A stretch of 48,273 bases of DNA from Pirellulaceae bacterium (lineage in GTDB: Bacteria > Planctomycetota > Planctomycetia > Pirellulales > Pirellulaceae): positions 1-48,273 of the forward strand of contig JBEBGH010000001.1 of the NCBI GenBank assembly GCA_040081565.1. The letters are read 5' to 3'. Shown piece by piece: positions 11,745 to 48,145 of the stretch; positions within the stretch are counted from its first letter, which is position 1, and every line of letters starts with the position of its first letter. Under the pieces are notes generated by a model. The model was not told the DNA's origin. It saw nothing but the letters and a program-made list of their open reading frames with translations, and did no database searches. The translations under genes were made by a program, and so were the position numbers.

Positions 11745-11914
11745 GGCAGTGGTGTTTCTGAATTCCCTACGGCTCGGGGATGTGATCCGTCGAGATTTCA
11801 ACTGGTACGCCAGTCTGTTCTAATCCAATTATTGTAACCGGCAGCGAACACCAGCTCGACGCTCGATTATCATGGGACTTAAACTTTTGGGCATTTTTTT
11901 CTTGCGGAGCAAGC

Positions 11915-17624: not shown

Positions 17625-17739
17625 ATTGCCCTCCAAAAAATAAATCGAAATTTCGTTACCAATTTTCCCAGTGCCGCGCATAGTCTCTTTCAGAACTAAA
17701 TAAACGCCTTCGACCGAAAGAGAATTCGTGCCGAAGACA

Positions 17740-20700: not shown

Positions 20701-21351
20701 GCTTGTATTTCAATCGGCGAGTTGGCTGCACATGATCGAACGAGGGTGGAAAGCGCATTTCATACTTTGCTCGAACTGCTCGAATCTAATTGGGACGCTC
20801 CGGTCGAGCATTCCACCGTCTTCACCTCTGACCCGGCTTCGACAGATGTGATCATCGTGGCAACGATCCGCTCGCTAAATAAGATTCAAGTTGAATTCAA
20901 GGTTCGAAGTGAAATCGCATTTCTTGATCAATGGGCCGTGGAATTGGTCACGAAGGTAGTACGGGAAAGACCCATCGTGAATGGTATCGGTTCGACGTCC
21001 CAAGGAGGCAAGTTGATTCAAGATGGCATTGGAGATGCTGCGTGTGAATTTTTCGCGCGCCATCTGAAACCGGAGCAAGCGATCGAATTTATCGAGCAAA
21101 ACTTGGTGTCCGGGTCCGACAATAGCAGCTTTCGTCTGCAGCATCTCTTCTCCGAGTCCGAATTCGTAACGACGATCAACAAAGTACTGCCGGAGTTGAT
21201 CAAATCCATCGAAAAATGGCCTGCCGTCGCCAAATCGGAAGCGCAAAAGTCGAACACGCATGAATTCCTTCGCATGGGCATCTTTTACCTCAAAAATGAT
21301 GAATTCAAAGCGGTCGCGGAATCGGCGATGAAAGCACTATCGAACAAATAG
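17740..21351 (+). CDS. Giant membrane Ser/Thr protein kinase with an N-terminal anti-sigma-like zinc motif and a roughly 750-aa helical-repeat ectodomain
   Basis: H-x3-C-x2-C (HFAVCDQC, nt 17863-17886). Kinase motifs are GAGSSGVV, VALKVL, HRDIKPANIWL, DFG, MSPEQ. TM helix WVAAVVVVGLAAWGW. The C-terminal region is alpha-helical and HEAT-like with a Gly-rich low-complexity tract (EGGGDSGGGAGTG). The start could be GTG 17728 or ATG 17740. Confidence 0.85.
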   Translation: MTKMSGDEEMVSQNNRCPSTAELNDYLQGKLPDEVLHGLESHFAVCDQCEETLRGLGADDTFSRLAENAMSEQTREVGERDFVSKLVTQLRSDVRFRVQPRAIQERSAEVIRFLDQSDSPECLGRLANYRIERVLGAGSSGVVFYAVDESLSRPVALKVLRPSLGSAARQRFMIEARMTASVNHPQIVTIYQVGEERELAFIAMQWLPGETLESRLERVTFLPEPEVRAIASQIVSGLQAAHEKMLVHRDIKPANIWLCEKTGEVKILDFGLARIADDDPHLTSSGMLAGTPNFMSPEQTRGQELDGRTDLFSLGCLMYRAATGKLPFGETGILATLQAIQHQQPRPPIELNPNIGADFSDLVMCLLEKQPANRPSSALVVLEALNQPRENWKFSVVSHHPLESAPQDFQRPVNRSQPSGPISQGQLKWTRWVAAVVVVGLAAWGWSVYGQQIIRVATNRGEIVIDSNDENISIEILKDGELIRVVDLKTEQKIEIKAGVYEIKAGKNGNENSISIQPNTLTMTRGGKQVVTISRTDPKIDAPGAISANRNEPTYDGRTFDQWISQLKNEQSLKFISEGAAALGYLSRNDETKCRQALEWIRPLIREHGSKIMDDKASWPGIFNAFFTQISPRYTVEFAIEEIESGTEQSRNQVIWNLLLGTLYEGDSRLIVDHQKMIRENFPTIMDKALKLIESNRLDKSSHQMRDLLAIAIRSAAQVAAYPSPFYVPRDSGFSQTMKNLLEERLAMRHNKEIRAFLAAELVGMEVRSQLAVNEFCALLSDPELPPELSNQMYYNHLALLNRNDIPQVVPALIKIYDNELMCDRLAMTLAQSIASGQFGKESAPLSPEENRIQIRIKILTQLGNYREKANAALTWLDQLASQKSESKGDQSLAQKAKQAARQIRNLDLKEDGAEGGGDSGGGAGTGARDETGKGDSTNSSVINEKKSGHSEPAESPKVVEKTLQGNTLTEWMKIAETELDRKTLMQACISIGELAAHDRTRVESAFHTLLELLESNWDAPVEHSTVFTSDPASTDVIIVATIRSLNKIQVEFKVRSEIAFLDQWAVELVTKVVRERPIVNGIGSTSQGGKLIQDGIGDAACEFFARHLKPEQAIEFIEQNLVSGSDNSSFRLQHLFSESEFVTTINKVLPELIKSIEKWPAVAKSEAQKSNTHEFLRMGIFYLKNDEFKAVAESAMKALSNK

Positions 21352-21398: not shown

Positions 21399-24300
21399 TC
21401 ATCGACTGGGTTCGATTGCAGTTCGGCCACGAATCGTCCGGAACTGGCGGCTGGTTACAATCGCCTCGATGGCAACGCTGAAACGAAAGCCGTTTTGTGC
21501 CAGCGATCGCTGCATTTGATCGAGCAACGGCTCGTCCGAATGTAGAACCTCCCGGCCCAGGGCGTAGCCCAAAAGTTTTTGGCAAAAGTGCCGCACAAAC
21601 TCGTCGCGCCGTGTCGTCGCAATATAAGCCTGCATTCCGGCAATACCGTCAATCGTCGTTCCATCCATTAGACGCGCCGCTGTATCCACCGGCTCCGCTT
21701 GCATCCGACCAATCGCATCAAATTGTTCCAGCGCGAAACCATAGGGATCGATGCGCACATGGCACTTCGCACACTGCGGTTGACTGCTGTGCAGCTCAAT
21801 CAATTGCCGGGCCGTCAATCCTTCCGGCACGGAGTCAGGCAATTTCGGAACGTCGGCTGGCGGACGCGGCAGTCGTTCGCCTAGCAATGTTTCCGAGACC
21901 CAAACTCCGCGAAGGATCGGACTGGTTCGCGAAGCTCCCGATTGACTGGCCAGTACGGTGGCCATTCCCAGGATCCCGCCCCTCCCGTGTGCGCGCATGC
22001 CGGCCAGTTTTTGCCACTCCGGCCCTTGCACGCCAGAAATTCCGTAATGCCGGGCCATTGCTTCATTCAAGAAGGCATGGTCGCCATCGATGATGTCGAG
22101 AATCGAACCATCGTTGCGAAACAGGTCCTCGAAGTATCGGACAGTCTCTTCATACATGTCGCCGCGTAATTTTGCAAACTCGGGGAACAACTGCTCGTTC
22201 TTGTCGTTGTTTTGATCGAAGTCCCGGACATGCAACCATTGGCAGGCGAACTGGATGGCCAAACGGCGTGTTCGCGGGTCGCGCAGCATTCTGCGTGTCT
22301 GCAAAAGCAGTTCTTCCGGTACTGGTCCCGTCGTGTTTGCCGCGAGCTTATCGCTGCGAGCGGATTCCAAGAGCGGTTCGTCAGGGATTGAAGACCACAG
22401 GAAATAGCTCAGGCGGGTCGCCAATTCGTTAGACGAAACGGGAGCGGGTCGGGCTTCTTCGCCAGCGTTTTCAAGTTTGTAAAGAAAGGCGGGCGATGTC
22501 AGCACGCGAGCCAGCGTCAACCCAATCGCTTCCTCGTGACGCAATTCGCCTTGGCGAAGTTCACGGTACAGGTCCCGCAGTTTCTGCTCTTCATCTGGAG
22601 TCAAAGTTCGCCTCCAGACACGACTGGCAAGTTGTACAACGGCAGCCAAATGGCCCGGTTCGCATTCAATCTTCCGCGCGCGAAAGGCCTCGGCGCGTTT
22701 GTAAATCGGGTCGCGCATCGGAGCAAACGCGGTCACCAGATCCGGACGGTCCTGGGTGGCAAACTCGGAAATTTGTTCAAAAGCCGTCGTGAGCAAAAGT
22801 GGCTCTTGGCTGACAAAAAACAACTGATCCCACAAACGATCGAGTTCCGCCTGTTGTTCCTCATTCAGCATTAGCCGCTGCAGGTATTCGTCCTCGCGGT
22901 GGTACAGAGTCAACGTTACGACTTCGTCGACCGGCACGATTCGTCCGTAACAAAGCGCAGCCGGAAACAGTTCGCGAAACTCGTCCATGGCCCGTTCCAA
23001 TTTTTCCCGCGCGGGACCGGGAATGGCAATGATCGGATCGTTCCAGCTGATGGACTGGTCGACGGGACGGGAATTTGAGGCGCGCAGTTGCACTGCTCCG
23101 CCTTTCGCCGTAGAGCCAGCCGCAAAATGCAAAGTCCCTGTCGTGCGAAATGTCGTATTCGCAAGTAGTTGGGCCGGTAATTTGATCTCCAAAACATGAC
23201 TCGCCTCCAGGCACAAGTTAGCTGCATCGACCGCCGTTCCATCGGGGCCAGTCCCAAACATCGCGGCATCCAATCCATAAACGGAACTCGCGTCACTGGG
23301 ATTTGGGGTCACGGCATCCAACCAACGCAATGGGCCATTCCAAGCCAACAATTGCCGCCGAAACTCCCGGTCACCTTCGTTGAGAGAAGTCGTCTCTGTC
23401 GCGGTCATCAATTGCTGAACGGATTTCTCCAAATCTTCGATTTCGGCATTCGGCCGCTTTTGCAAGATGGCCGTCCGCCACTCGGCGATGGAAGAACCCG
23501 TCGGAAGCGACGAACGAGATTCAGGGCCAATCGCTTGAGCACAAAAATGCCAGACCTCAGAGTTGCCCAGTGTGTCTGCCAAAGGATTCGCTTCTTGAAT
23601 GCGGTCGACGATGTCGGTCGCCAAATTCCAAACGCGTTTTTGTTCGCCGACCTCAGTCAATGTCAGATCGACCCGCGTCGTATCACATGAGTGATCGCCG
23701 GTTCGGGGATTGATGATCAACGAAACGACATCTCCGCGCAGGACTTCAATTTCATTTGCTGCGGCGAAGGTCGCTTGATTCGCAGAATCGATGCTGCCTT
23801 GTTTGACAATGTTCAGACCGATTGAGTTTTGATGCAGCACGCTCCATTCGACGCCGTTTCCACAATTGTTGTCGGCGTCGGCCACGATTCCGTCGAGTTT
23901 AATTTTTCCATCAAGCGGACTTCGCCAGGCGATGACCGATTCGAGTGCTGGTGAGGGATGAACGAAAACGCTGCGGGCGGGAAGTGTAAGCGTCGAAAAG
24001 GCGATCGTATCATCAGAGCGATTCGACAGAATGCTTGGGTTTTGGGGAGAACCCCAACCATTGATCGCCTCATAACCCGAGACCTTTGCCAGTTGTTCTG
24101 TGAAATGCCCTTTTATTTCGCGGCTGGCCGGGCCCAAGCCCAAATACGCCGTCCAAGCCTTCAGGAGCACGGGGTTGAGGCCTCGACTGTCGGCCACGGA
24201 TTCGATGGATTGGTTGCTCGCGTGAAACTCGCGAACCGCAGACAAATACTGCGCCGTGGCGGGTAGTGCATTGGCGATCAGCAATTCGACTTGCGAGCTA

Positions 24301-25568
24301 ATTGCGCGAACATCGCGCAGGAAAATTGGGGGCCGACCATTGCCAAACTCCAAACGCGGTTGCTGCCATTCAGCGAAGTCCGCTGAGCCAACATCGCTTA
24401 CCTTGGCTGCCGCCAGATAAAGAATCAATTCGCCTTCACCGGCATCGGCCAACGGCAAACTGAATTCTTGACTAGCGACGACAGGAGAGATCGCCTCCAT
24501 CCAAGACACCGGTCCGCCTGCTCGTCCGATTTGACCGACCGGATTAAATCGCCACAAAAACGTGTGGGATTGCTCGACGTAAGCCACGAGTTGCGGGACA
24601 TCGTCGATCGTTGCGGCCTTCCATTTCTTGCGCAACTCGCTCAGTCCCAGCCCTGGAGTCTCACGGTCTTCTCTTACCAGCGCCTCCCAGAGTTTGCCGA
24701 GGTATTTTGGATTCAAGGATCGTTCCTCGGCGACTTTTTCAATCGACGATTTTCCGCTTAACAATTCCTCACGATGAACGATCGTTGCCTGAAAGTAGCG
24801 CGTCAACGGAATCACGCCGCCGTGATTGGTGTCGAATTTGATGCCTTGCAAATCTACCGGCATCCCGCCCCCTTCATCGGCAAAGCGGCGATAGAACTCC
24901 TGAATCCGGTTCAAGTGTTCGTCAGAATGATCGCGTCGACTGGCGAACGGTGAAAAGCGGATTCCATCGGGGAGCAGCACCACATGCCGGGCAACTTCAT
25001 GGGCAGCATCGAGGTATTTCGTCATCAGGGCGGGAGACATGCCTTGGGCGGCCCCCGAGTTGGTGAACCCTTCGCCCGCCGCACCATCCACCGGGAACTC
25101 CCGCGTCGGGTTCAGCGAATCCACGCCGGTCAAATCCTGGATGGTGTAGTTGTATTCGGCGTTGCTCAACCGCCGCAGAATCACCGGCCCTGGATCACCG
25201 GCATTGGCCAGTGCAGCCCGCTTGAGCCACTCGTGCACCCACTCGTTCAACTTTGCTGCTTCAGCGTCGGTTGGCTGCGGCGAACCTTCGGGTGGCATCT
25301 GAGATTGCTTCAGCACCTCGCGGACTTTTTGCCAAAGGTCAAATTGCTTCCCCAAGTCGGCGAACGTCCGCGACGCACCGAGATCTATTTCAGCTTCGGC
25401 ATCATCACCCTCATGGCATTCGACGCAGTAGCGGTTGAGCAAGGGTCGCACGTCTTTAGCGAAAGAGTTTTCAAAGTTCGCAGCATCAGATTCTTGCTGT
25501 GCGAACGCAATCGTTGACCCGTCCAGGCAACACAGCCCCAACAGACCAATGACCAAAACAAATCTCAT
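21399..25568 (-). CDS. Planctomycete DUF1587/DUF1592/DUF1595/DUF1588/DUF1585-type giant secreted protein with heme-binding-like CxxCH motifs
   Basis: Signal MRFVLVIGLLGLCCL. N-terminal CVECH and C-terminal CAKCHVRIDPYGFALEQFD (DUF1585-like). TSPAFLYK (DUF1588/1592-like). The start is taken at CAT 25566-25568. Confidence 0.8.
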   Translation of the reverse strand: MRFVLVIGLLGLCCLDGSTIAFAQQESDAANFENSFAKDVRPLLNRYCVECHEGDDAEAEIDLGASRTFADLGKQFDLWQKVREVLKQSQMPPEGSPQPTDAEAAKLNEWVHEWLKRAALANAGDPGPVILRRLSNAEYNYTIQDLTGVDSLNPTREFPVDGAAGEGFTNSGAAQGMSPALMTKYLDAAHEVARHVVLLPDGIRFSPFASRRDHSDEHLNRIQEFYRRFADEGGGMPVDLQGIKFDTNHGGVIPLTRYFQATIVHREELLSGKSSIEKVAEERSLNPKYLGKLWEALVREDRETPGLGLSELRKKWKAATIDDVPQLVAYVEQSHTFLWRFNPVGQIGRAGGPVSWMEAISPVVASQEFSLPLADAGEGELILYLAAAKVSDVGSADFAEWQQPRLEFGNGRPPIFLRDVRAISSQVELLIANALPATAQYLSAVREFHASNQSIESVADSRGLNPVLLKAWTAYLGLGPASREIKGHFTEQLAKVSGYEAINGWGSPQNPSILSNRSDDTIAFSTLTLPARSVFVHPSPALESVIAWRSPLDGKIKLDGIVADADNNCGNGVEWSVLHQNSIGLNIVKQGSIDSANQATFAAANEIEVLRGDVVSLIINPRTGDHSCDTTRVDLTLTEVGEQKRVWNLATDIVDRIQEANPLADTLGNSEVWHFCAQAIGPESRSSLPTGSSIAEWRTAILQKRPNAEIEDLEKSVQQLMTATETTSLNEGDREFRRQLLAWNGPLRWLDAVTPNPSDASSVYGLDAAMFGTGPDGTAVDAANLCLEASHVLEIKLPAQLLANTTFRTTGTLHFAAGSTAKGGAVQLRASNSRPVDQSISWNDPIIAIPGPAREKLERAMDEFRELFPAALCYGRIVPVDEVVTLTLYHREDEYLQRLMLNEEQQAELDRLWDQLFFVSQEPLLLTTAFEQISEFATQDRPDLVTAFAPMRDPIYKRAEAFRARKIECEPGHLAAVVQLASRVWRRTLTPDEEQKLRDLYRELRQGELRHEEAIGLTLARVLTSPAFLYKLENAGEEARPAPVSSNELATRLSYFLWSSIPDEPLLESARSDKLAANTTGPVPEELLLQTRRMLRDPRTRRLAIQFACQWLHVRDFDQNNDKNEQLFPEFAKLRGDMYEETVRYFEDLFRNDGSILDIIDGDHAFLNEAMARHYGISGVQGPEWQKLAGMRAHGRGGILGMATVLASQSGASRTSPILRGVWVSETLLGERLPRPPADVPKLPDSVPEGLTARQLIELHSSQPQCAKCHVRIDPYGFALEQFDAIGRMQAEPVDTAARLMDGTTIDGIAGMQAYIATTRRDEFVRHFCQKLLGYALGREVLHSDEPLLDQMQRSLAQNGFRFSVAIEAIVTSRQFRTIRGRTAIEPSR

Positions 25569-25747
25569 GACACGGCACTTCGCTTGCATGCGTCGACTCA
25601 GGGTCAAGAAAACAAATCGTTCGGTTGCAGCATACTTGGATTTCAACAGTGAACCACAAAACCGAAACTGTGAGTATAGATCAATACCGACTCAAATCCT
25701 ATTAATGCCACGAACTCGTCGAGGTTTCTTCGCATCGACGTTTGCGC

Positions 25748-39068: not shown

Positions 39069-41255
39069 CTAATTCGCCGAGCGACTTCGCGGCCGCCTTC
39101 GGCTGGTCATGCCTGCCACCAAGACTATTACCAGCCCGAATCCAGCCGGCTCGGGAACGGAGCTGATTCGTAGAATCCCTGAACTCTGGAACGAAGAAGT
39201 GTCCCAGGTCAGCCCCGAGGAAAGAGGTGCGGAGCTGAAATCGAACAGCATTCCTTGCCAGTTCAAAGTGCCCCAGTCGAACAAGTCGAACTCGTCTCCC
39301 AAAATCGGCGAGTAACCGTTGAGGAAAAGACGCAGCGTGCCACCTGCATCAAATTCTCCTCTTACCCACAACTGGTCGTACTGTCCGTCGCCACTTCCCT
39401 CGATCTCAAAGAGCAACGTGCCGTCGTTTTCGAAATCGCCGTTGAGGTTCAGTAAACCCGGCGAGTTGCCAGGTGAAAATATTCCCTCGTTCAAAATGTT
39501 TCCGTGGACAAATCCGACCAGGTCGTTTGCGGGATCAAAAATCGTTCGCAAATTCAGCCTTGCTCCCGCATGGATCCGGATCCGCTCGTCGACCGTCAGG
39601 TACTGTCCGCCGACGTCGAGTGACATTTCGCCGGACTCGACATCCACGCTCTGGGTTCGGACGATGCGATCGAGAATCATCTGCCGCAATCCGGTGTGGG
39701 CAAAGATGGCCCGACCGATTTCGAGCGCAGGCGTTCCGGTCGACCAGTTTCGGCCATCGCTCCAGCGCATGGTAGGGCCAGGGCCCGAGACGACAACGCC
39801 CCCAAAACCCAACTGGCCAACCCACTGGGTGCTCCCCGGGTAAAAATTGGTTCCTGCCCCGTCCTCATCATAATGACCATATCCCGTTGCCCACCCGTCA
39901 GCCGCTATCGATTGCACACGTTCCAGCGTCCATGTCCCGCTTCCTCCCAAAATACTTTGGATCGGCAAGTCGTTCAGATCCATAATCGTTCCACCGGGGA
40001 GCCAAACAACTGCATGCCAGTAACCAAAGGCTGAGCCTGGTTCGAATTTTGCCGAGGCCCCACCAACAGTGCCGGCTTCATTGATCGTCAGCGCCTGGCT
40101 GTAGTGATACCCAGAATCGCTGATGCTCAGCGGGTTCAGTACAGTTGGTGTCGCCGTGCCAGGCGCCCACTTCAACGCATGGTCACGGACATTCAGTCCG
40201 TTCGTGTCGAATTCGCTGGATGAGCCGACGCCAGTTCCAGACTCATTCATGTCTGAAATGGATTGGAGGTAAACGTAGTCCACAGTCGCTGGCGGATGAG
40301 GACTTTCCAGCAACGTGTAATTGCCGGCGGCGTCCCAATGGATGCCCTGAAAGTTTTGCCGCCCGTCGCTGAAATATTCGGTAAAGCTGCCGAATACCGT
40401 TCCGCTATCTGTAATCCCGTAGGCTTCCGAGAAAATGTTGGTCGCGGTTGAAGTGGGCATCGCCAACTGGATGGCCGTGGTTGATCCGGCGTCCCACCGA
40501 ACCGCCCGGTGTTCATTGCTGAGACCGCTACTGTCCCAAGTGTTCGCGTAACCGACCAGTGTGCCAGCGTTGTTGATCGCCACGGCCCTCGAATGCGTAT
40601 AACCGGTGGCGCTGGTTCCAAGGTTGCCGAGTTCTACGGCCGTCGTGGAGTTGGCATCCCAACGCACCGCGCGCGTACCGAAGTCCGTGCTTGCTGATGT
40701 GCCAACGTAGCTGTAACCCCCAGCGATTCCGCTGTCGCTGATTGCGAGTGCTTCCGAGTACGCAACGGCATTGGAGAGATGTCCAAGATTGACCGGCGCG
40801 GTTGACCCCGCGTCCCAGCGGGCTGCCTGTTGTCCAATATTGTTCGAAGACGTATCGATCAGCGTGTAGCTGCCGGCCACCTGACCGTTGTTGTTCAGGG
40901 ACCAGGCAAAAGAACTGTAGGTTCCGTTGTACGGATTGGTGTTCACATCCAGCAGTTCATAGGCATTTCCCGAGCCATATTCCCAGCGGATCCCGCGGCT
41001 GCCAAGAAAAGTACCGGTCTGATAATGCGAGAAATTGCCGATGGCCTGTCCCGAGCCGTTGACCAAAATGGCGATAGGACTGGCAATGAGGCCCGACCCG
41101 TTCGGCGATTGCCATACCGGCGGGTTGTCGAGCAGCAAAGTGCCTTGAGATGGCGTTTGCGCTGGCCCTAACTTTGGCACCAAGGCCAAACAAACGGCCA
41201 GATATAATCCGGCGGTCAGCCGAATGCAAGAATTGATCGGCCATCTTACGCTCAT
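39069..41255 (-). CDS. Secreted HAF-like extracellular-repeat protein with a PEP-CTERM anchor
   Basis: Signal LTAGLYLAVCLALVPKLGPAQ. There are at least 6 repeats of the type (H/R)A(V/L)(R/K)W(D)..(G/S)T....L (AARWDAGSTAPVNLG, RAVRWDANSTTAVELG, RAVRWDAGSTTAIQL, GIHWDAAGNYTLL, HALKWAPGTATPTVL, HAVVWLPGGTIMDL). The C-terminus is VPEPAGFGLVIVLVAGMTSRRRPRSR. Confidence 0.8.
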   Translation of the reverse strand: MSVRWPINSCIRLTAGLYLAVCLALVPKLGPAQTPSQGTLLLDNPPVWQSPNGSGLIASPIAILVNGSGQAIGNFSHYQTGTFLGSRGIRWEYGSGNAYELLDVNTNPYNGTYSSFAWSLNNNGQVAGSYTLIDTSSNNIGQQAARWDAGSTAPVNLGHLSNAVAYSEALAISDSGIAGGYSYVGTSASTDFGTRAVRWDANSTTAVELGNLGTSATGYTHSRAVAINNAGTLVGYANTWDSSGLSNEHRAVRWDAGSTTAIQLAMPTSTATNIFSEAYGITDSGTVFGSFTEYFSDGRQNFQGIHWDAAGNYTLLESPHPPATVDYVYLQSISDMNESGTGVGSSSEFDTNGLNVRDHALKWAPGTATPTVLNPLSISDSGYHYSQALTINEAGTVGGASAKFEPGSAFGYWHAVVWLPGGTIMDLNDLPIQSILGGSGTWTLERVQSIAADGWATGYGHYDEDGAGTNFYPGSTQWVGQLGFGGVVVSGPGPTMRWSDGRNWSTGTPALEIGRAIFAHTGLRQMILDRIVRTQSVDVESGEMSLDVGGQYLTVDERIRIHAGARLNLRTIFDPANDLVGFVHGNILNEGIFSPGNSPGLLNLNGDFENDGTLLFEIEGSGDGQYDQLWVRGEFDAGGTLRLFLNGYSPILGDEFDLFDWGTLNWQGMLFDFSSAPLSSGLTWDTSSFQSSGILRISSVPEPAGFGLVIVLVAGMTSRRRPRSRSAN

Positions 41256-43892: not shown

Positions 43893-44005
43893 AGCCCTGC
43901 CAACAGACTTTTTGCCGAACAGACTTGAAACATGCCTGTATCGCGTGTATCATTATGTGATTCGTACTCCACGCGCAGCTATCGGTCTTGTAAAGAGCAG
44001 TAGAG

Positions 44006-47000
44006 ATGTCAAACTTCCCGTTTGGGCAAACCATTAGGAAAATTGCTGAAAAAAAGGGCATTAGCCAGTCGGAATTGGCAAAGATAGCCGGTGTATCACG
44101 TGTGCAAATAAACCGAATATTTAATGCAACATCGGAGAGTATTCGAGAGGAAACAAGGCAAAAGCTGCTCGATGCTCTTGGGATTAACTGCGACGAACTT
44201 GAAGTTTCTGATGCTCTCAAATCCTACAAACAAAAGGTGGTGGAAAAGTACAGCGTCAGGTCATTCGCCGGCATGGGATTCGTCGAACCGCAGAAGCGAA
44301 AGCTCGATTCGTTTTATGTTTCACCAAAAGCCGTTAGAAAACAACTGAGCCCAACGGCCAGCGAGTCGAAGAAGTCAGGCGATCCGAGTTGTCACACTGG
44401 ATTAACTTTGCGGCGAAAGTTCGAAAAGAGAGAGGAACCGACGGCAGCGGACGCAATGGTTATGACCTATCCCAATGCGATTGTTTTAGGAGCTCCAGGA
44501 TCTGGCAAGACAACATTAGTGCAATTCATGGCTCAGCGAGTTGCTGATGGAAAGGTCGCCGACGTTGAAATCCCGGTTGTCGTGCGTCTAGCCGAGTTCG
44601 CGTTGGCATTGGAAACACACCCTGAAATTGATTTCATCGATTGGATTGTATCGCGAGCCGAAGAAGTTGGCTGCTCTGACTTGGACGTGCCTCTAAGGCA
44701 ATTGCTGGAGAAAGAATCGCGAGCGATTTTGTTTTTGTTAGATGGGCTCGATGAAGTTCCTGAATCAGAACGCATCAGGAGTAAAGTGGTTAGCGCGACA
44801 GTCGACTTTGTTCGTCGCTTTCCTAATCAACGATACGTTGTCACCTCTCGACCAGCCGGATTTGACCCCCAGCCATGGTCGCCGCTCGGTTTTGAATTTC
44901 TTGAATTGCAAGAGTACAAACGCAGTGAGATTGAAGCCGTGGTGAAGAAATGGAGTTCAATTTTGTCGGGAGACGGAGAAACATCTGAGAATATCGAACA
45001 AGAGTTGCTCGAGGCGATTTTTGCAAATGAGCGAGTACGGCAATTGGCGGCGAATCCTCTGGTGTTGACGATTCTCATAGTCTTGTGCAAATCTCGCGGT
45101 TACGCGTTGCCAAGGCGGCGAGTTGATCTTTACGCAAAACTTTCCGAGGTCTTTCTCGAATCATGGGAAGCCAGCAAACGCAAGGAAACGGGCTATCGCG
45201 AAACTCGTGTAGTTGACTTGGATACTAGAGAGTTGGCGTGGCTTGTGGCAGACTTGGCGTTAGCGATGCAGCGTGCTCGTAAGGTGACTGCACCGCGCTG
45301 GTGGATTGTTGATCGGTTTCAAGAGACCCTTTGTACAAAAATTGGTTTTTCAGCAACCGAAGCGAAAGCGCAAATCGACCCCATCCTTAGATTCATATCA
45401 ACCCGCGCGGGTCTTCTTGCACAGCCACTACCTGACGTATTCGCTTTCGAACATCGGACCTTTCAAGAGTATTTTGCTTCGCTTGGAATTATCGAGGAGG
45501 CAGAATCCAATGATCGACCAATGAGTCTATCGCATTTGCTAAAAGACATGCTTTACGACTCATCGTGGCAGGAGGTTGTGCAGCTGGTCAGTGCTCAAGT
45601 CAGCCCGGCGCGTGCCGAAGAATTACTCAAAACAATTGTTGACGATCCCGATCCACTCGGTCGTTTTCTGGGACGCGGCACCGTTTTGGCTCTTCGCTGT
45701 CTAAGCGACGGAACGACGATTTCCAATCGTAAGTTCACAGATTCTATTTTCAGGAGCCTGCTTGAACGGGGTGGTTCGGAATGGTTGGGAATTACCGCTG
45801 AAATTTTTGCAACTCTCGATGGCCTTGCAGGGACACGTTACGAGCAGGCAGCTAGAGCAGCAAAAAACACAATGCTTGAAAATGCCCAATCGGCGCTGCA
45901 ACCCGAACAATATCAGTGGCTTGTGTTTGAAGGCTGCGTGCGCGAATCCGAAATCGAATGCCCTCCTTATGACGACTCGAAAGCGATCACAACGGCAAAG
46001 ATGACCTGCCGCAGTCTTTCTGAAGACATCAAGCTGATCAACATGCGTTTACTGCAAAGTTCACCCAAAGAGTGGTTTAGCATTGCAAGTAAGTCACTCG
46101 ACAACCGGAGAATAGATGAAGGCGACGCCATTACAATTTTTGAAGGAATTTATCTCGCTGTTTCCAAAGACAAAACATTAAGAGAAGAAGCAAGAAGCGT
46201 GTCACAGCGAGAGATTTCTCGAAAATCGGCTCCGACGGGCACTCGACGGGCAGCCACTCGCGTTTTCAAATCAATCGCTGAATCAGAATCAAATTGGCAG
46301 TTCCTGTTGGATCGGATTCTTGACAACGACGATGACGAGACTTTTCGTCATGATGCGGCGATGATGCTTGGGCGGGATGCCTTTAAGTCAAGGACGATAC
46401 GCGAGATGCTCATGCGAACATGCCGTGATAGACGTATTCCCTCTTGGATTCGTTCGGGCGTGGTTTATGGAATGCGAGAAGCAGTGCTGGATCATCCAGA
46501 TATCGAAAAGTTGCTTGTTGAGCTGGCATCGAAGTCGAATGGACCGAGCGAAACCGCAGTGGTGGCACTAAAACCAGTTAGTGATCGTTACATCGAAGAT
46601 TTCAAGAAGTGGGCGCAAGACGATTCGCCGCGTGCAAAGCCTGCCTGCGAAATTCTGGCGTCACTTTACGCGGCGGGCAAGGTCGACTGGGATTCGTTCG
46701 CTACCGACGTCGTCGCGCTTAGACTTTCGGAATGTGGGCATCCTGATTCCAAAATGGGAGAACCGTGTCCTTGCGCCTTGAATGCCATTCGGGAAATTGT
46801 GGTTACTCGAGATCGAATTGCTGGAATGACCCTAGAAAATATCTTGGCAAAACACTTGCTGCCCTTGGAGACGAAAATCACAAGTGCGTTCTTATTCGGA
46901 TCGGTTGCGCGTGCCGACCAAGAAGCAGATAGTGACGTCGACTTGATGTTGATCGGTGACCTTCACATGAGAGATTTGGCAAGTTTCATTAAGCCTGTTG

Positions 47001-47182
47001 AAAAGATTGTCGGGCGTCGACTGAATCCTGCCGTCTATTCGTTGGCGGAATTCACGAAGAGGAATCGAGAAAACAATACCTTCGTGAAGGACGTCATGGG
47101 GAAACCGAAATCGTTTGTAAAACTACCTGGGAAAATATGCACGGAGGAGCAATTAGAAAATGAGCTTGGAAGAATGGTTTAG
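44006..47182 (+). CDS. HTH(XRE)-NACHT NTPase-helical repeat-nucleotidyltransferase (MNT) fusion protein (NLR-like STAND protein)
   Basis: aa 1-65 form an XRE HTH (IRKIAEKKGISQSELAKIAGVSRVQINRIFN). Walker A GAPGSGKTT is at nt 44489-44512 (K168). Walker B is ILFLLDGLDEV (nt 44726-44755). VVTSRP is the NACHT sensor-1-like motif. aa 560-940 or so are helical repeats. aa 942-1058 form an MNT domain with FLFGSVARADQEADSDVDLMLIGD (G965-S966, D977-x-D979). Confidence 0.85.
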   Translation: MSNFPFGQTIRKIAEKKGISQSELAKIAGVSRVQINRIFNATSESIREETRQKLLDALGINCDELEVSDALKSYKQKVVEKYSVRSFAGMGFVEPQKRKLDSFYVSPKAVRKQLSPTASESKKSGDPSCHTGLTLRRKFEKREEPTAADAMVMTYPNAIVLGAPGSGKTTLVQFMAQRVADGKVADVEIPVVVRLAEFALALETHPEIDFIDWIVSRAEEVGCSDLDVPLRQLLEKESRAILFLLDGLDEVPESERIRSKVVSATVDFVRRFPNQRYVVTSRPAGFDPQPWSPLGFEFLELQEYKRSEIEAVVKKWSSILSGDGETSENIEQELLEAIFANERVRQLAANPLVLTILIVLCKSRGYALPRRRVDLYAKLSEVFLESWEASKRKETGYRETRVVDLDTRELAWLVADLALAMQRARKVTAPRWWIVDRFQETLCTKIGFSATEAKAQIDPILRFISTRAGLLAQPLPDVFAFEHRTFQEYFASLGIIEEAESNDRPMSLSHLLKDMLYDSSWQEVVQLVSAQVSPARAEELLKTIVDDPDPLGRFLGRGTVLALRCLSDGTTISNRKFTDSIFRSLLERGGSEWLGITAEIFATLDGLAGTRYEQAARAAKNTMLENAQSALQPEQYQWLVFEGCVRESEIECPPYDDSKAITTAKMTCRSLSEDIKLINMRLLQSSPKEWFSIASKSLDNRRIDEGDAITIFEGIYLAVSKDKTLREEARSVSQREISRKSAPTGTRRAATRVFKSIAESESNWQFLLDRILDNDDDETFRHDAAMMLGRDAFKSRTIREMLMRTCRDRRIPSWIRSGVVYGMREAVLDHPDIEKLLVELASKSNGPSETAVVALKPVSDRYIEDFKKWAQDDSPRAKPACEILASLYAAGKVDWDSFATDVVALRLSECGHPDSKMGEPCPCALNAIREIVVTRDRIAGMTLENILAKHLLPLETKITSAFLFGSVARADQEADSDVDLMLIGDLHMRDLASFIKPVEKIVGRRLNPAVYSLAEFTKRNRENNTFVKDVMGKPKSFVKLPGKICTEEQLENELGRMV

Positions 47183-47603
47183 AAATTCATGGCTGACCAA
47201 AGCCAACCCCAACAAATCTGAGATAGTTCAGCTTTTGGAAGTTGCAGACCGTGACCTTGCAGACGGGCAAGTCGTAGGCGTCAGTGTCGATGGACGTTAC
47301 GTTCATCTGTATGAAGCTGCCTTAGCGCTTTGTAGTGTCGCCTTGCGCGCTTGTAGTTATCAAGTGAAAAAAGGGCAGGGAAATCACAAAAGGACAATCG
47401 AGTCTTTACCTTTGACCCTTGGAAATGAGTATTCCAAAATCGCTGACCAAATTGATACTGCTTCACGCTTGCGCGGTCAGGCGCAATACGATCGAAGCGG
47501 AGTTGTCAGTGAATCGGACGTAAAGGAACTGCTTGCGATTGTGGTCGAATTAAGGTCCAAGATCACGATTTGGCTAAAAGACAATTATCCTTCCCTGATT
47601 TAA
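47160..47603 (+). CDS. HEPN-like domain protein, putative cognate partner of the MNT domain
   Basis: ATG 47160 is preceded by GGAGGAG (47144-47150) and overlaps the upstream CDS by 23 nt. The 147-aa all-helical pattern matches classical HEPN: ADRDLADGQ...RYVHLYEAALALCSVALRA...GNHKRTIESL...ASRLRGQAQYD. It has R105-x4-Y110 rather than Rx4-6H. Confidence 0.6.
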   Translation: MSLEEWFRNSWLTKANPNKSEIVQLLEVADRDLADGQVVGVSVDGRYVHLYEAALALCSVALRACSYQVKKGQGNHKRTIESLPLTLGNEYSKIADQIDTASRLRGQAQYDRSGVVSESDVKELLAIVVELRSKITIWLKDNYPSLI

Positions 47604-47617
47604 GGCGGCCGCGGCCA

Positions 47618-47941
47618 TTAATCGCTGCATGCTGAATTTGGAAAAACGAACTTCTTCCAAAAAGCCAAGCGACTCAAAAAAGATTTTGGTTTTGCGGTTG
47701 GTGGCGTTGGAGGTTTTGCCGGGCTGGTTAGCTCCGTGATTTGGGTTGGTTGGGGGCGGGTGCCGGTGGCGACTTCGGTGATGATGCGTTTTAGGAGGTT
47801 GTTGATGGGGTCGGTGGCGTTTAGGGCGATTGCGGCGTTGATGGTTTTTGTTGCTTCTGGGATTCGGGCTGCGAGGAGGTAGGCGCAGGCTAGATTGCCG
47901 AGGGTTTCGGCGTCGTCGGGGTGGATCGCGGCGGCTTTCAT
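47618..47941 (-). CDS. Small TPR-like/Pro-Thr-rich ORF, possibly a gene fragment
   Basis: MKAAAIHPDDAETLGNLACAYLLAARIPEATKTINAAIAL resembles a single TPR unit, followed by a P/T-rich tail. The + strand is strongly G+T-skewed here. The alternative 131-aa frame is R/P/H-rich junk. Confidence 0.35.
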   Translation of the reverse strand: MKAAAIHPDDAETLGNLACAYLLAARIPEATKTINAAIALNATDPINNLLKRIITEVATGTRPQPTQITELTSPAKPPTPPTAKPKSFLSRLAFWKKFVFPNSACSD

Positions 47942-48145
47942 CTTGCTTGAAATGAATATGCGACACCATTCGACCTTTGGTCAGGCGTTCTTGCCCGTGT
48001 CAGGCCAAAAAAAGAAATTCTTGCAGAAGTCAGAAAAAAGCGGTGGATGGCGACGGCGTTTTCGCAGAAGTGTAAGTAGCGGATCGCAAAATGTGTCGTT
48101 GAGTTGAACGTTTCCCTAGCCATCTTGAACACCGAGGTTACTGGC

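What the first reader, a model, noticed from the sequence alone, without database searches (positions are those of the whole stretch)
44006..47603. NLR-like NACHT protein fused to an MNT antitoxin-type domain, with an overlapping HEPN-like partner gene: candidate new defence architecture
Seen in sequence: one 1058-aa ORF combines an N-terminal XRE-type HTH, a NACHT P-loop NTPase (GAPGSGKTT; LFLLDGLDEV; VTSRP), about 380 aa of helical repeats and a C-terminal minimal nucleotidyltransferase domain (GSVAR...DSDVD). A 147-aa HEPN-like ORF starts 23 nt before its stop and has its own GGAGGAG RBS. Established knowledge: bacterial NACHT/STAND proteins act as antiphage sensors coupled to effector domains. 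MNT/HEPN pairs are toxin-antitoxin modules (type VII HepT/MntA) in which the MNT enzyme neutralises the HEPN RNase by nucleotidylylation. Inference: the antitoxin enzyme is covalently attached to an NLR-like sensor. A ligand- or ATP-driven conformational change or oligomerisation of the NACHT module could switch off MNT activity and release the HEPN toxin (abortive infection). The HTH could autoregulate the operon or sense DNA. I am not aware of this exact HTH-NACHT-repeat-MNT plus HEPN arrangement being described, but I cannot search to confirm that.
Basis: partly seen in the sequence, partly recalled or inferred. Interest (0 to 1): 0.85.

Follow-up and report, generated by a model that had tools for sequence, protein, structure and literature searches.

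The report
NLR-like sensor fused to antitoxin enzyme
A Planctomycete operon joins an animal-NLR-like ATPase sensor to the enzyme half of a known two-gene nucleotidyltransferase/HEPN module, with the HEPN protein encoded by an overlapping gene; this conserved family looks like an undescribed way of wiring an immune-type sensor to a toxin-antitoxin-type output.

Summary
A 1058-aa ORF (44006-47182) carries an XRE HTH, a NACHT NTPase, about 375 aa of helical repeats and a C-terminal minimal nucleotidyltransferase (MNT) with an exact GSX10DXD motif. A 147-aa ORF (47160-47603) overlaps it by 23 nt behind a GGAGGAG site.

The partner is a HEPN-fold protein, but not HepT. It belongs to the AF0298-like "HEPN-T" class (R105-x4-Y110 plus invariant H76, no His in the motif).

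The MNT domain plus the partner equal PADLOC candidate system PDC-M05. That system is already catalogued, and one paper reports phage protection. Only its ~50-aa wHTH head has been replaced by about 900 aa of HTH-NACHT-repeats.

More than 100 full-length homologues exist, almost all in Planctomycetota. The partner follows the fusion gene in 18 of 18 loci with DNA. Catalytic residues of the NACHT, MNT and HEPN parts are invariant. The repeat region is the most variable part. Several loci lie beside CBASS, TIR or OLD-type defence genes.

Best reading: an NLR-gated, type VII-like MNT/HEPN abortive-infection module. The direction of control and the HEPN toxicity are inferred, not shown. I found no description of this arrangement in the accessible literature. 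Verdict: a new variant of known kinds.

The parts
43902..43953 (+). Upstream control region: sigma70-like promoter (TTGAAA-17-TATCAT, 43925-43953), direct repeats AACAGACTT x2 (43902-43926), and tandem GC[CG]TGTATC x2 (43934-43951). Candidate operator for the N-terminal HTH.
   Evidence: TGTA[AT]C is about 20-fold enriched in the 150 nt upstream of the NACHT gene across 16 loci (19 observed, 0.97 expected). The tandem 9-nt-spaced form occurs in the window, L002 and L085 and nowhere else in 253 kb. The motif was chosen post hoc, so the P value is inflated. Promoter-like sites as such are not above the shuffled expectation.
44006..47182 (+). Gene for the 1058-aa HTH-NACHT-helical repeat-MNT protein.
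44033..44200 (+). XRE-type helix-turn-helix (aa 10-65); R32 and T50 invariant.
   Evidence: Pfam HTH_3 6.6e-10; invariants; helices 6-57 in the model.
44456..45625 (+). NACHT module (NBD plus helical and winged-helix domains, aa 151-540). Walker A G162-T170 at 44489-44515, Walker B D246-V251, S281-R282.
   Evidence: Pfam NACHT 3.7e-12; invariant motifs in 91 sequences; Foldseek NLRC4 4kxf 4e-11, NLRP3, NOD2.
45626..46750 (+). Helical (HEAT-like) repeat region, aa 541-915, with a beta-hairpin insert at aa 649-678. The presumed ligand-sensing part.
   Evidence: Model secondary structure; HEAT_2 hits in most homologues. Sub-region aa 646-915 is the least conserved part, with 25% mean pairwise identity.
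46751..47125 (+). Linker helix (P920, C921) plus minimal nucleotidyltransferase domain (aa 916-1040). GSX10DXD = G965-D979 at 46898-46942.
   Evidence: PADLOC PDC-M05A 2.3e-29 over aa 942-1039. BLASTP to a standalone PDC-M05A (L089): 31% identity, 4e-23, aa 900-1039 against 50-184. Profile hits to solved MntA proteins: 5yep_A 7e-5, 9xbd_E 8e-5, 8xeh_E 2e-4. Invariant G965, S966, S976, D977, D979, G984, G1003.
47126..47182 (+). C-terminal tail with a short helix (aa 1047-1057; L1054 near-invariant) and the stop codon. It is encoded partly in the overlap with the partner gene and is a candidate HEPN-contact element.
   Evidence: Model (pLDDT about 68); conservation. The contact role is an inference by analogy with the C-terminal helix of some MntA proteins (PMC11586414 abstract).
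47143..47149 (+). GGAGGAG ribosome-binding site of the partner gene, inside the upstream gene.
   Evidence: A purine-rich SD-like run precedes the partner start in all 15 loci examined, and the overlaps are 23-89 nt.
47160..47603 (+). Gene for the 147-aa HEPN-fold partner (PDC-M05B family). H76 at 47385-47387; R105-x4-Y110-D111 at 47472-47492.

Best explanation
This is a two-gene, NLR-like conflict (probably anti-phage, abortive-infection) system. It arose when the enzyme gene of a PDC-M05-type MNT/HEPN pair was fused to the C-terminus of an HTH-NACHT-helical-repeat STAND protein. Shown: the architecture, the intact active-site residues of all three enzymatic or putative enzymatic parts, strict co-inheritance and translational coupling of the two genes, a fast-evolving repeat region, and descent from PDC-M05. 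Inferred: in the resting, monomeric, ADP-type state the C-terminal MNT domain binds the HEPN dimer and keeps it inactive, most likely by nucleotidylylating the invariant Tyr110 that sits in the R105-x4-Y110 active-site loop (as MntA does to HepT). Binding of an invader-derived ligand to the variable repeats then drives NTP-dependent opening or oligomerisation of the NACHT module. This stops or occludes MNT, or releases or clusters HEPN. Unmodified HEPN (R105/H76 site) then cleaves RNA and arrests the cell. The N-terminal XRE HTH probably autoregulates the operon through TGTAWC repeats over its promoter.
For: Architecture and folds. Family: more than 100 full-length homologues at 28-45% identity with the same domain set, almost all Planctomycetota. 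Coupling: the partner lies directly after or overlapping the fusion gene in 18 of 18 loci with DNA, and in none of 71 NACHT-only loci. The only close homologue that truly lacks the NTase (P0108, a serpin fusion) is followed by a cellulase gene. Overlaps of 23-89 nt with an SD-like run occur in all loci. Active sites under selection: Walker A/B, TSR and GSX10DXD are invariant in 91 sequences; H76, R105 and Y110 are invariant in 15 NACHT-linked partners and in at least 121 of 122 other family representatives. Origin from a TA-like pair: canonical relatives are wHTH-NTase (191-210 aa) plus an overlapping 147-aa HEPN gene. The fusion keeps M05A residues ~50-184. NACHT-linked partners form one NJ clade that excludes the canonical ones. 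Type VII precedent: MntA oligoAMPylates a Tyr next to the HEPN motif using GSX10DXD (PMC13000451; PMC11586414); solved MntA proteins are the best PDB matches of the C-terminal domain. The closest solved HEPN (9xbd) is crystallised with its NTase, and a Tyr-to-Phe variant of the aligned Tyr was deposited (9xbc). Sensor-like variability: repeats aa 646-915 show 25% identity against 44-52% for MNT, WHD and HEPN. Defence context: CBASS type III + PDC-S02 flank the pair in L084; an OLD/AriA-like ATPase in L002; DUF8370-TIR in L001, L005 and L085; an E1/E2/JAB-patatin gene in L102. A PDC-M05 pair protected E. coli against at least one phage. The locus GC of 0.48-0.50 against 0.55-0.57 in the flanks suggests horizontal acquisition.
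Against: There is no experimental datum for this family. The partner lacks the canonical HEPN His and is not a HepT/DUF86 protein. RNase activity or toxicity of this HEPN-T/PDC-M05B class is not shown in any paper I could read; Anantharaman et al. only propose an alternative H/R site. NLR-type sensors normally switch fused enzymes on by induced proximity, which is the opposite of what a simple 'antitoxin off' model needs. In the window and in 8 further loci the nearest neighbours are not recognisable defence genes, so island association is partial (about 6 of 17 distinct loci, three of which share the same TIR neighbour). No member was found on viral contigs or plasmids. The third NTase carboxylate is not obvious. 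Monophyly rests on an unsupported NJ tree.
Confidence: 0.45

Rival explanations
1. NLR-activated two-component nucleotidyltransferase. The HEPN protein is not a toxin but the substrate-binding or regulatory subunit of the MNT enzyme, like the C-terminal domain of kanamycin nucleotidyltransferase. Ligand-driven NACHT oligomerisation switches the enzyme on. It then nucleotidylylates a host or phage target, or makes a nucleotide signal.
For: This is the original HEPN hypothesis and the KNTase analogy (PMC3710099). The partner lacks the motif His. PDC-M05A is typed 'NT_KNTase_like', and KNTase is among the PDB hits. Kibby et al. file the NACHT-fused pol-beta NTase under 'nucleotide-signal-generating' effectors. 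It fits the usual NLR activation-by-proximity logic. There are weak local hits to Hailong HalB.
Against: H76, R105 and Y110 are invariant across about 140 diverse family members. They sit exactly where Anantharaman et al. place the alternative HEPN catalytic site: the helix2-helix3 insert and the end of helix 3. HEPN domains that merely serve MNTs typically lose these residues. The best sequence matches of the NTase are MntA antitoxins. No receptor or effector for a signal is conserved next to the pair.
Confidence: 0.2
2. Recruit-and-cluster model. The MNT domain mainly tethers HEPN dimers to the sensor. NACHT oligomerisation brings HEPN dimers together into an active higher-order RNase, as for other HEPN enzymes that need dimerisation. 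Nucleotidylylation is only a resting-state safety catch or a reset.
For: Same evidence as the best explanation for coupling and active sites. HEPN activity depends on oligomeric state in related systems (PMC13000451 abstract; PMC11586414). Kibby et al. argue that C-terminal effectors behind repeats end up where N-terminal effectors normally sit. The high pTM of 0.88 indicates a fixed position of MNT on the solenoid.
Against: No structural or interaction data exist. It cannot be distinguished from the best explanation with these tools. It requires stable MNT-HEPN binding, which is not shown.
Confidence: 0.2
3. Not immunity. A STAND-type transcription regulator (HTH output, like MalT/AfsR-class regulators) that has picked up a selfish MNT/HEPN addiction module, or that regulates it in response to a physiological signal.
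For: The N-terminal XRE HTH is conserved (R32, T50 invariant). A conserved TGTAWC element lies upstream. Many loci, including the window, sit among ordinary genes. The family is restricted to one phylum with complex regulation.
Against: The NTase is fused in frame and its catalytic residues are invariant, which a passive passenger would not require. The repeat region evolves fast, like an immune sensor. Defence genes recur as neighbours. The PDC-M05 family was identified by embedding in defence islands, and one member was active against phage.
Confidence: 0.1

Closest known systems
PDC-M05 (PADLOC phage-defence candidate: M05A wHTH-KNTase-like nucleotidyltransferase + M05B HEPN protein)
   Same: The partner matches M05B end to end (2.8e-41). 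The C-terminal aa 942-1039 match M05A (2.3e-29). Gene order is the same and the genes overlap. Identical conserved residues: GS..DxD, and H76/R105/Y110.
   Different: M05A is about 200 aa with an ArsR/HVO_A0114-like wHTH head. Here that ~50-aa head is replaced by about 900 aa of XRE HTH, NACHT NTPase and helical repeats. NACHT-linked partners form their own clade with extra invariant residues H49, C58 and K71. PADLOC would not call this locus PDC-M05 through a full-length A component.
Type VII toxin-antitoxin HepT/MntA (Shewanella SO_3166/3165, Aphanizomenon, Legionella HEPN-MNT)
   Same: An MNT with GSX10DXD is encoded upstream of a small HEPN protein. A Tyr sits in the HEPN active-site loop. 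Solved MntA proteins are the best PDB sequence matches of the C-terminal domain, and HepT structures are among the top fold matches of the partner.
   Different: The HEPN here is not DUF86/HepT. The motif is R-x4-Y-D, not RX4HXY, and the His comes from the helix2-helix3 insert (AF0298-like HEPN-T). The NCBIfam MntA model scores 21 bits against a cutoff of 60. The MNT is the C-terminal domain of a 1058-aa STAND protein. AMPylation and toxicity are untested.
[quoted passage not shown]
   Same: N-terminal HTH, a NACHT with NLRC4/NLRP3-like fold, C-terminal HEAT-type repeats, and an extra element after the repeats. [quoted passage not shown]
   Different: No PADLOC or NCBIfam model of a validated NACHT/Avs system matches (the best, EruA, scores 21 bits against a cutoff of 1000). 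The output here is an antitoxin-type enzyme with a separately encoded HEPN partner, a link not made in the texts I could read. No NTase label was found in the stored part of their Table S1.
Fused MNT-HEPN proteins (FhepTA, Shewanella; NAR 2026)
   Same: They show that an MNT/HEPN module can be rewired by fusion, and that MNT controls HEPN both by oligoAMPylation and by blocking its dimerisation.
   Different: There MNT is fused to HEPN itself, with no NTPase sensor. Here MNT is fused to a NACHT sensor and HEPN stays separate.
Cmr1-MntA (PDB 9z7q/9z7v/9z7x)
   Same: By its name, an MntA-type NTase covalently joined to a subunit of another immune sensor (type III CRISPR). It shows a weak profile match to the C-terminal domain (E 0.11). 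It may be a conceptual precedent for a sensor-tethered MntA.
   Different: The sensor is different (an RNA-guided complex). No paper is available in the library, so the mechanism and any HEPN partner are unknown to me.
Hailong (HalA/HalB)
   Same: A pol-beta-type NTase that acts as a continuously working 'off' enzyme of a toxic effector (own knowledge). Local hits to HalB over the GS..DxD region.
   Different: Only the catalytic motif matches (24 bits against a cutoff of 190). The effector there is an ion channel, not HEPN, and there is no NACHT.

Membership tests
NACHT / NLR-like STAND NTPases | P-loop NTPase with Walker A GxxxxGK[ST] and Walker B hhhhD[GAS]hDE | tested here: met
   G162APGSGKTT170 and LFLLD246GLDEV251. 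The core residues G162, P164, G165, G167, K168 and D246-D249 are invariant in 91 homologues; T169, T170, E250 and V251 are at >=90%. Pfam NACHT 3.7e-12, above the cutoff.
NACHT / NLR-like STAND NTPases | NBD-helical-winged helix module with the NLR fold | tested here: met
   AF2 model pLDDT 89.9. Foldseek top 48 hits are NLRC4, NLRP3, NOD2, NAIP, NLRP1 and similar, E down to 4e-11.
NACHT / NLR-like STAND NTPases | C-terminal repeat or sensor region | tested here: met
   Helical repeats aa 522-908. HEAT_2/HEAT Pfam hits in most homologues. It is the most variable region.
Validated anti-phage NACHT/Avs systems (bNACHT, Avs1-5, EruA) | Match to a curated model of a validated system | tested here: not met
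   PADLOC gives no bNACHT/Avs hit for the NACHT part. NCBIfam EruA scores 21 bits against a cutoff of 1000.
Validated anti-phage NACHT/Avs systems (bNACHT, Avs1-5, EruA) | Protection against phage that depends on the NTPase | not testable with these tools
   Needs experiments.
PDC-M05 | M05B: ~147-aa HEPN-type protein | tested here: met
   PDLC04377 2.8e-41, aa 1-147 against profile positions 1-146 of 149.
PDC-M05 | M05A: ~200-aa protein with an N-terminal wHTH plus a KNTase-like NTase | tested here: inconclusive
   Only the NTase half matches (profile positions 91-189 of 201, 2.3e-29). BLASTP covers M05A residues 50-184. The wHTH head is absent and is replaced by HTH-NACHT-repeats.
PDC-M05 | A gene immediately upstream of, and overlapping, the B gene | tested here: met
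   23-nt overlap in the window, 23-89 nt in 15 loci, and 26-47 nt in canonical pairs.
Type VII TA HepT/MntA | MNT antitoxin with the GSX10DXD motif | tested here: met
   G965-S966-X10-D977-V-D979, invariant. Motif definition from PMC11586414. The profile hits 5yep_A MntA at 7e-5.
Type VII TA HepT/MntA | Curated MntA equivalog model | tested here: not met
   NF047752 scores 21.4 bits against a cutoff of 60, over a local match of 29 residues.
Type VII TA HepT/MntA | HEPN toxin of the DUF86/HepT type with RX4HXY | tested here: not met
   No DUF86 hit. The motif is R105-G-Q-A-Q-Y110-D111, with no His in the motif in any of 15 NACHT-linked partners.
Type VII TA HepT/MntA | MNT nucleotidylylates a Tyr of HEPN and thereby neutralises an RNase toxin | not testable with these tools
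   Y110 is invariant and aligns with the Tyr mutated in PDB 9xbc. This is suggestive only.
HEPN superfamily | Four-helix up-down bundle of the HEPN fold | tested here: met
   Model pLDDT 96.5. The top Foldseek hits are 1ufb, 2hsb, 1ylm, 6m6u, 8xeh and 1wol, all HEPN, with probability 0.9-1.0 and TM 0.4-0.68, though E-values are only 0.06-0.3. Profile against 9xbd_A: 5e-4.
HEPN superfamily | Rx4-6H catalytic motif at the end of helix 3 | tested here: not met
   R105 is present and the His is absent (Tyr110/Asp111 instead). An invariant H76 lies in the helix2-helix3 insert, as described for AF0298-like HEPN-T and AbiV.

The most novel reading that the evidence does not exclude
This would be the first example of an NLR-type (NACHT) immune sensor whose output is not a fused killer domain but a fused enzymatic antitoxin. 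Ligand sensing by the variable repeats stops the C-terminal MNT from nucleotidylylating Tyr110 of a separately encoded, non-canonical HEPN RNase (or releases that RNase), so the cell is arrested by loss of a neutralising modification. It would show how a free-running type VII-like TA or PDC-M05 module acquires a dedicated trigger. It would also give the abundant, archaeal-enriched PDC-M05 family a testable mechanism.
Probability: 0.35. Interest if true: 0.8.

Novelty: new variant of a known kind. Interest (0 to 1): 0.62.

Why it matters
How toxin-antitoxin-like modules are triggered during infection remains largely open (own knowledge). Type VII HepT/MntA and PDC-M05 are among the most abundant such pairs, and none of the papers read here names a trigger for them. 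Here the neutralising enzyme is covalently wired to an NLR-like ATPase with a fast-evolving repeat sensor, in a family of more than 100 members whose catalytic residues are all intact. That points to a concrete, testable trigger pathway. It also adds an 'antitoxin as effector' logic to bacterial NLR-like immunity, where the known outputs are nucleases, NADases, proteases or pores. The point mutants are defined (K168, D977/D979, Y110, R105, H76). The family also shows that database 'NACHT domain-containing protein' or 'HEAT repeat' annotations in Planctomycetota hide a two-gene system that current defence finders would miss or half-call.

Tried and rejected
1. Natural split variants. Database homologues without the NTase (P0027, P0106) looked like three-gene versions. 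tblastn shows that the NACHT/MNT reading frame is broken by frameshifts (L102 runs through three frames; in L103 '...WDARL*' then 'VNKVEGYLMAV...' is contiguous with intact homologues, and its partner gene is frameshifted too). They are errors or decaying copies. L011 is the same.

2. Mobile carriers. There is no full-length member and no partner on IMG/VR viral contigs or PLSDB plasmids. Only NACHT-only relatives were found.

3. Homology of the repeat/linker region (aa 540-960) to NACHT-only relatives, to test a link with Kibby's 'NCC-H' element: no hits.

4. Pattern scan with the diverse partner alignment failed because no conserved stretch was available.

5. Literature. Searches for PDB 9xbd and for Cmr1-MntA found nothing relevant. 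Searches combining NACHT/NLR/STAND with MntA/HepT/HEPN/antitoxin gave only general papers.

6. Promoter and terminator scans are not above the shuffled expectation, and no intrinsic terminator follows the partner gene.

7. PADLOC hits for the nearest neighbours in L007-L012: none. The window's own flanks are an ABC transporter and unknown genes.

8. Model coordinates are not exposed. I therefore could not measure the H76-R105-Y110 geometry or the docking of MNT on the solenoid.

Full report
**1. The observation**

They overlap by 23 nt. A GGAGGAG site lies at 47143-47149, 10 nt before the second ATG.

Pfam finds these domains in the large protein:
- HTH_3, aa 10-65, 6.6e-10.
- NACHT, aa 159-317, 3.7e-12.
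- Polbeta nucleotidyltransferase, aa 950-987, 2.8e-6, above the curated cutoff.
- NTP_transf_2, aa 956-1016.
- A weak HEAT_2 hit.

An AlphaFold2 model built on 91 homologues is confident (pLDDT 89.9, pTM 0.88). Only aa 116-141 are disordered. An all-helical region spans aa 522-908 with a beta-hairpin insert at 649-678, followed by an alpha/beta domain at 943-1032 and a last helix at 1047-1057. Foldseek places the model next to NLRC4, NLRP3 and NOD2 (E down to 4e-11). The locus has lower G+C (0.48-0.50) than its flanks (0.55-0.57). Other genes in the window carry Planctomycete-specific PSD/PSCyt domains.

**2. The small protein**

On its own it barely touches Pfam HEPN (E=0.075). Four further results settle the fold:
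- It matches PADLOC model PDC-M05B end to end (2.8e-41).
- It belongs to a large family of standalone ~147-aa proteins: 1116 clusters at 50% identity in an exhaustive HMMER search.
- 13 of 38 diverse members hit Pfam HEPN and 7 hit HEPN_SAV_6107. A family profile hits PDB 9xbd 'HEPN domain-containing protein' at 5e-4.
- Its AF2 model (pLDDT 96.5) has only HEPN domains as top structural matches: TT1696, AF0298, YutE, HepT, Legionella HEPN and ST0689. Probabilities are 0.9-1.0 and TM-scores 0.4-0.68, though E-values are modest at 0.06-0.3.

It is not a canonical HEPN RNase motif carrier. The conserved pattern is R105-x4-Y110-[D/E], with no His in the motif, plus an invariant H76. In the model H76 lies in the insert between helix 2 (43-64) and helix 3 (89-111), and R105/Y110 lie at the end of helix 3. 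This is exactly how Anantharaman et al. describe the AF0298-like HEPN-T proteins and AbiV, for which they propose an alternative His/Arg active site (PMC3710099). H76, R105 and Y110 are invariant in all 15 NACHT-linked partners and in at least 121 of 122 other family representatives.

**3. The C-terminal domain**

Residues 942-1039 match PADLOC PDC-M05A (2.3e-29), but only positions 91-189 of the 201-position profile. G965-S966-X10-D977-V-D979 is an exact GSX10DXD, the motif of MntA-type enzymes (PMC11586414). It is invariant in 91 homologues.

A profile of this domain hits solved MntA antitoxins first:
- S. oneidensis MntA 5yep_A, 7e-5.
- 9xbd_E, 8e-5.
- Legionella MNT 8xeh_E, 2e-4.
- Then HalB and kanamycin NTase.

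9xbd therefore holds the closest solved relatives of both halves of the module. The companion entry 9xbc carries Phe at the position aligned with Y110, which suggests its depositors study that Tyr. I found no paper for it.

Canonical relatives of the partner sit behind 191-210-aa wHTH-NTase genes that overlap them by 26-47 nt (L088-L090). BLASTP aligns window aa 900-1039 with residues 50-184 of such a protein (31% identity, 4e-23). The fusion therefore kept everything except the ~50-aa DNA-binding head.

**4. Conservation and coupling**

The word-indexed search returned more than 100 full-length homologues (28-45% identity, 1000-1105 aa) with the same Pfam set. Where named, they are nearly all Planctomycetota, for example Fuerstiella marisgermanici. 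In species-representative genomes, all nine full-length or near-full-length matches (one cut by a contig end) are Planctomycetota: Pirellulaceae, Kuenenia, Gemmataceae and Isosphaeraceae. The other 71 loci hold NACHT-only relatives from cyanobacteria, Chloroflexi and other groups.

A homologue of the 147-aa protein follows or overlaps the end of the fusion gene in every locus with DNA:
- L001-L012.
- L084-L087, including one uncalled gene in L086.
- L102 and L103.

None of the 71 NACHT-only loci has either the MNT or the partner. The one close homologue that truly lacks the NTase (P0108, a serpin fusion) is followed by a cellulase gene. Two database proteins that seemed to lack the NTase are frameshifted copies.

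Overlaps are 23-89 nt, always with a purine-rich SD-like run.

Mean pairwise identity by region in 12 matched loci:

| Region | Identity |
|---|---|
| HD1-WHD-HD2 | 0.52 |
| HEPN partner | 0.50 |
| MNT | 0.44 |
| NBD | 0.39 |
| HTH | 0.33 |
| Repeats aa 646-915 | 0.25 |

So the output is constrained and the repeats evolve fast, as expected for a sensor.

In an NJ tree, the 15 NACHT-linked partners fall in one clade (22 of 147 tips). The clade excludes the three canonical-context proteins and carries extra invariant residues H49, C58 and K71. This fits a single fusion event, but the tree has no support values.

**5. Genomic context**

- L084: the pair lies between a complete CBASS type III operon (cyclase 1.6e-118, HORMA, TRIP13, NucC) and a PDC-S02 gene.
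- L002: an OLD/AriA/GajA-like ATPase is the upstream neighbour.
- L001, L005 and L085: all share a divergent DUF8370-TIR gene (PDC-M36A-like). In Fuerstiella it is interrupted by an ISL3 transposase and lies near an integrase.
- L102: an E1/E2/JAB-patatin fusion upstream and transposases downstream.
- Eight other nearest neighbours gave no PADLOC hit. The window's own flanks are an ABC transporter and unknown genes.

The defence-island signal is real but partial. No member was found on viral contigs or plasmids.

**6. Regulation**

A sigma70-like promoter (43925-43953) precedes the gene. It is overlapped by AACAGACTT x2 and by tandem GC[CG]TGTATC x2. TGTA[AT]C is about 20-fold enriched in the 150 nt upstream of the NACHT gene in 16 loci (19 observed, 0.97 expected). 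The 9-nt-spaced tandem form occurs upstream in the window, L002 and L085 and nowhere else in 253 kb.

The motif was picked from these same sequences and part of it may simply be the -10 element, so this is only a lead. It fits autoregulation by the conserved XRE HTH (R32 and T50 invariant).

**7. Mechanism**

Shown:
- The anatomy.
- Intact catalytic residues.
- Obligate pairing and translational coupling.
- Descent from a PDC-M05 pair.
- A variable repeat region.

Established elsewhere:
- MntA enzymes oligoAMPylate a Tyr beside the HEPN motif and thereby silence HepT (PMC13000451, PMC11586414, PMC7641770).
- Bacterial NACHT proteins are anti-phage sensors with variable effectors, some C-terminal (Kibby et al.).
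- A PDC-M05 pair protected E. coli against at least one of T4, T5 or T7, although a later survey still calls its antiviral role unconfirmed.

Inferred: in the resting state the MNT domain holds and nucleotidylylates HEPN at Y110. Ligand binding to the repeats drives NTP-dependent rearrangement or oligomerisation. That ends the neutralisation (or clusters HEPN), and HEPN arrests the cell by RNA cleavage.

The weak point is the direction of control. NLR logic normally turns a fused enzyme on, whereas here the fused enzyme is the presumed off switch. I therefore keep two close rivals: a NACHT-activated two-component NTase with HEPN as its substrate-binding subunit, and a recruit-and-cluster model. 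A non-immune STAND regulator reading also remains.

**8. Comparison and novelty**

- The module half is PDC-M05, which is known and catalogued. The A component is met only in part.
- It works like type VII HepT/MntA but fails membership. The partner is not DUF86, has no RX4HXY, and the MntA equivalog model scores 21 bits against a cutoff of 60.
- The sensor half is a genuine NACHT/NLR-like protein but matches no validated system model. [quoted passage not shown]
- Kibby et al. mention a NACHT-fused 'novel pol-beta fold nucleotidyltransferase' as a presumed signal-generating effector. That may include this family, but no link to a HEPN partner or to MNT/HEPN TA modules appears in the text or in the stored supplementary table.
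- A PDB entry named 'Cmr1-MntA' hints that tethering MntA to an immune sensor has a precedent in type III CRISPR. No paper was available.

I rate this a new variant of known kinds: a conserved, previously unremarked wiring of an NLR-like sensor to an enzymatic-antitoxin/HEPN pair. Interest is 0.62. It is mechanistically provocative and directly testable, but it is built from known parts and has no functional data.

Noticed in passing
L001:2274-5766 (-), L005:3405-5510 (-), L085:5438-7543 (-): A 554-701-aa DUF8370 + TIR_2 protein (PADLOC PDC-M36A-like plus Aga_TIR) lies divergently, directly upstream of the NACHT-MNT gene in three loci of one subclade. In Fuerstiella it is split by an ISL3 transposase. 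It could be a third component or just an inherited island neighbour.
   Followed up: partly
window 43902-43951; also L002, L084, L085, L001, L006, L012 upstream regions: TGTA[AT]C repeats are about 20-fold enriched in the 150 nt upstream of the NACHT gene (19 observed, 0.97 expected). They are tandem with 9-nt spacing in the window, L002 and L085, and absent from the most divergent clade. This is a candidate operator or -10 element. The motif was chosen post hoc.
   Followed up: partly
L084:4706-7865 (-) and 11766-12878 (-): A complete CBASS type III operon (cyclase, HORMA, TRIP13, NucC) and a PDC-S02/DUF1016 gene flank the NACHT-MNT/HEPN pair on either side.
   Followed up: yes
L102:1-2468 (-): A 1170-aa protein combines Prok-E2_A, ThiF (E1), Prok-JAB and Patatin domains next to the (frameshifted) system. 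It is an unusual single-chain ubiquitin-like conjugation plus phospholipase fusion.
   Followed up: no
L011:6001-9068, L102:4019-7147, L103:3986-7499: The NACHT-MNT gene (and in L103 also the HEPN gene) is broken by frameshifts. This is either long-read assembly error or gene decay. It explains the apparent 'NTase-less' database proteins P0027 and P0106.
   Followed up: yes
L088:2945-6490: Two tandem NTase + small-protein pairs (181+133 aa and 191+147 aa) are followed by two ADP-ribosylglycohydrolase genes and preceded by a SAM synthetase-like gene.
   Followed up: no
PDB 9z7q/9z7v/9z7x; PDB 9xbd/9xbc: Solved but, in this library, unpublished structures: 'Cmr1-MntA' (an MntA fused to a type III CRISPR subunit), and a HEPN+NTase complex that shares the RN..YD/His pattern of the partner, with a Tyr-to-Phe variant.
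   Followed up: partly
window 44001-48000 against the flanks: The G+C of the locus is 0.48-0.50 against 0.55-0.57 in the preceding 7 kb. This is consistent with horizontal acquisition. The GC skew is also strongly positive (up to 0.22).
   Followed up: no
window 17728-21351 (+), 21399-25646 (-), 39069-41255 (-): A 1207-aa Ser/Thr kinase, a 1415-aa PSD/PSCyt (DUF1585/1587/1588/1592/1595) protein and a 728-aa protein with a PEP-CTERM-like tail mark the window as Planctomycetota-like chromosome. None is related to the finding.
   Followed up: partly
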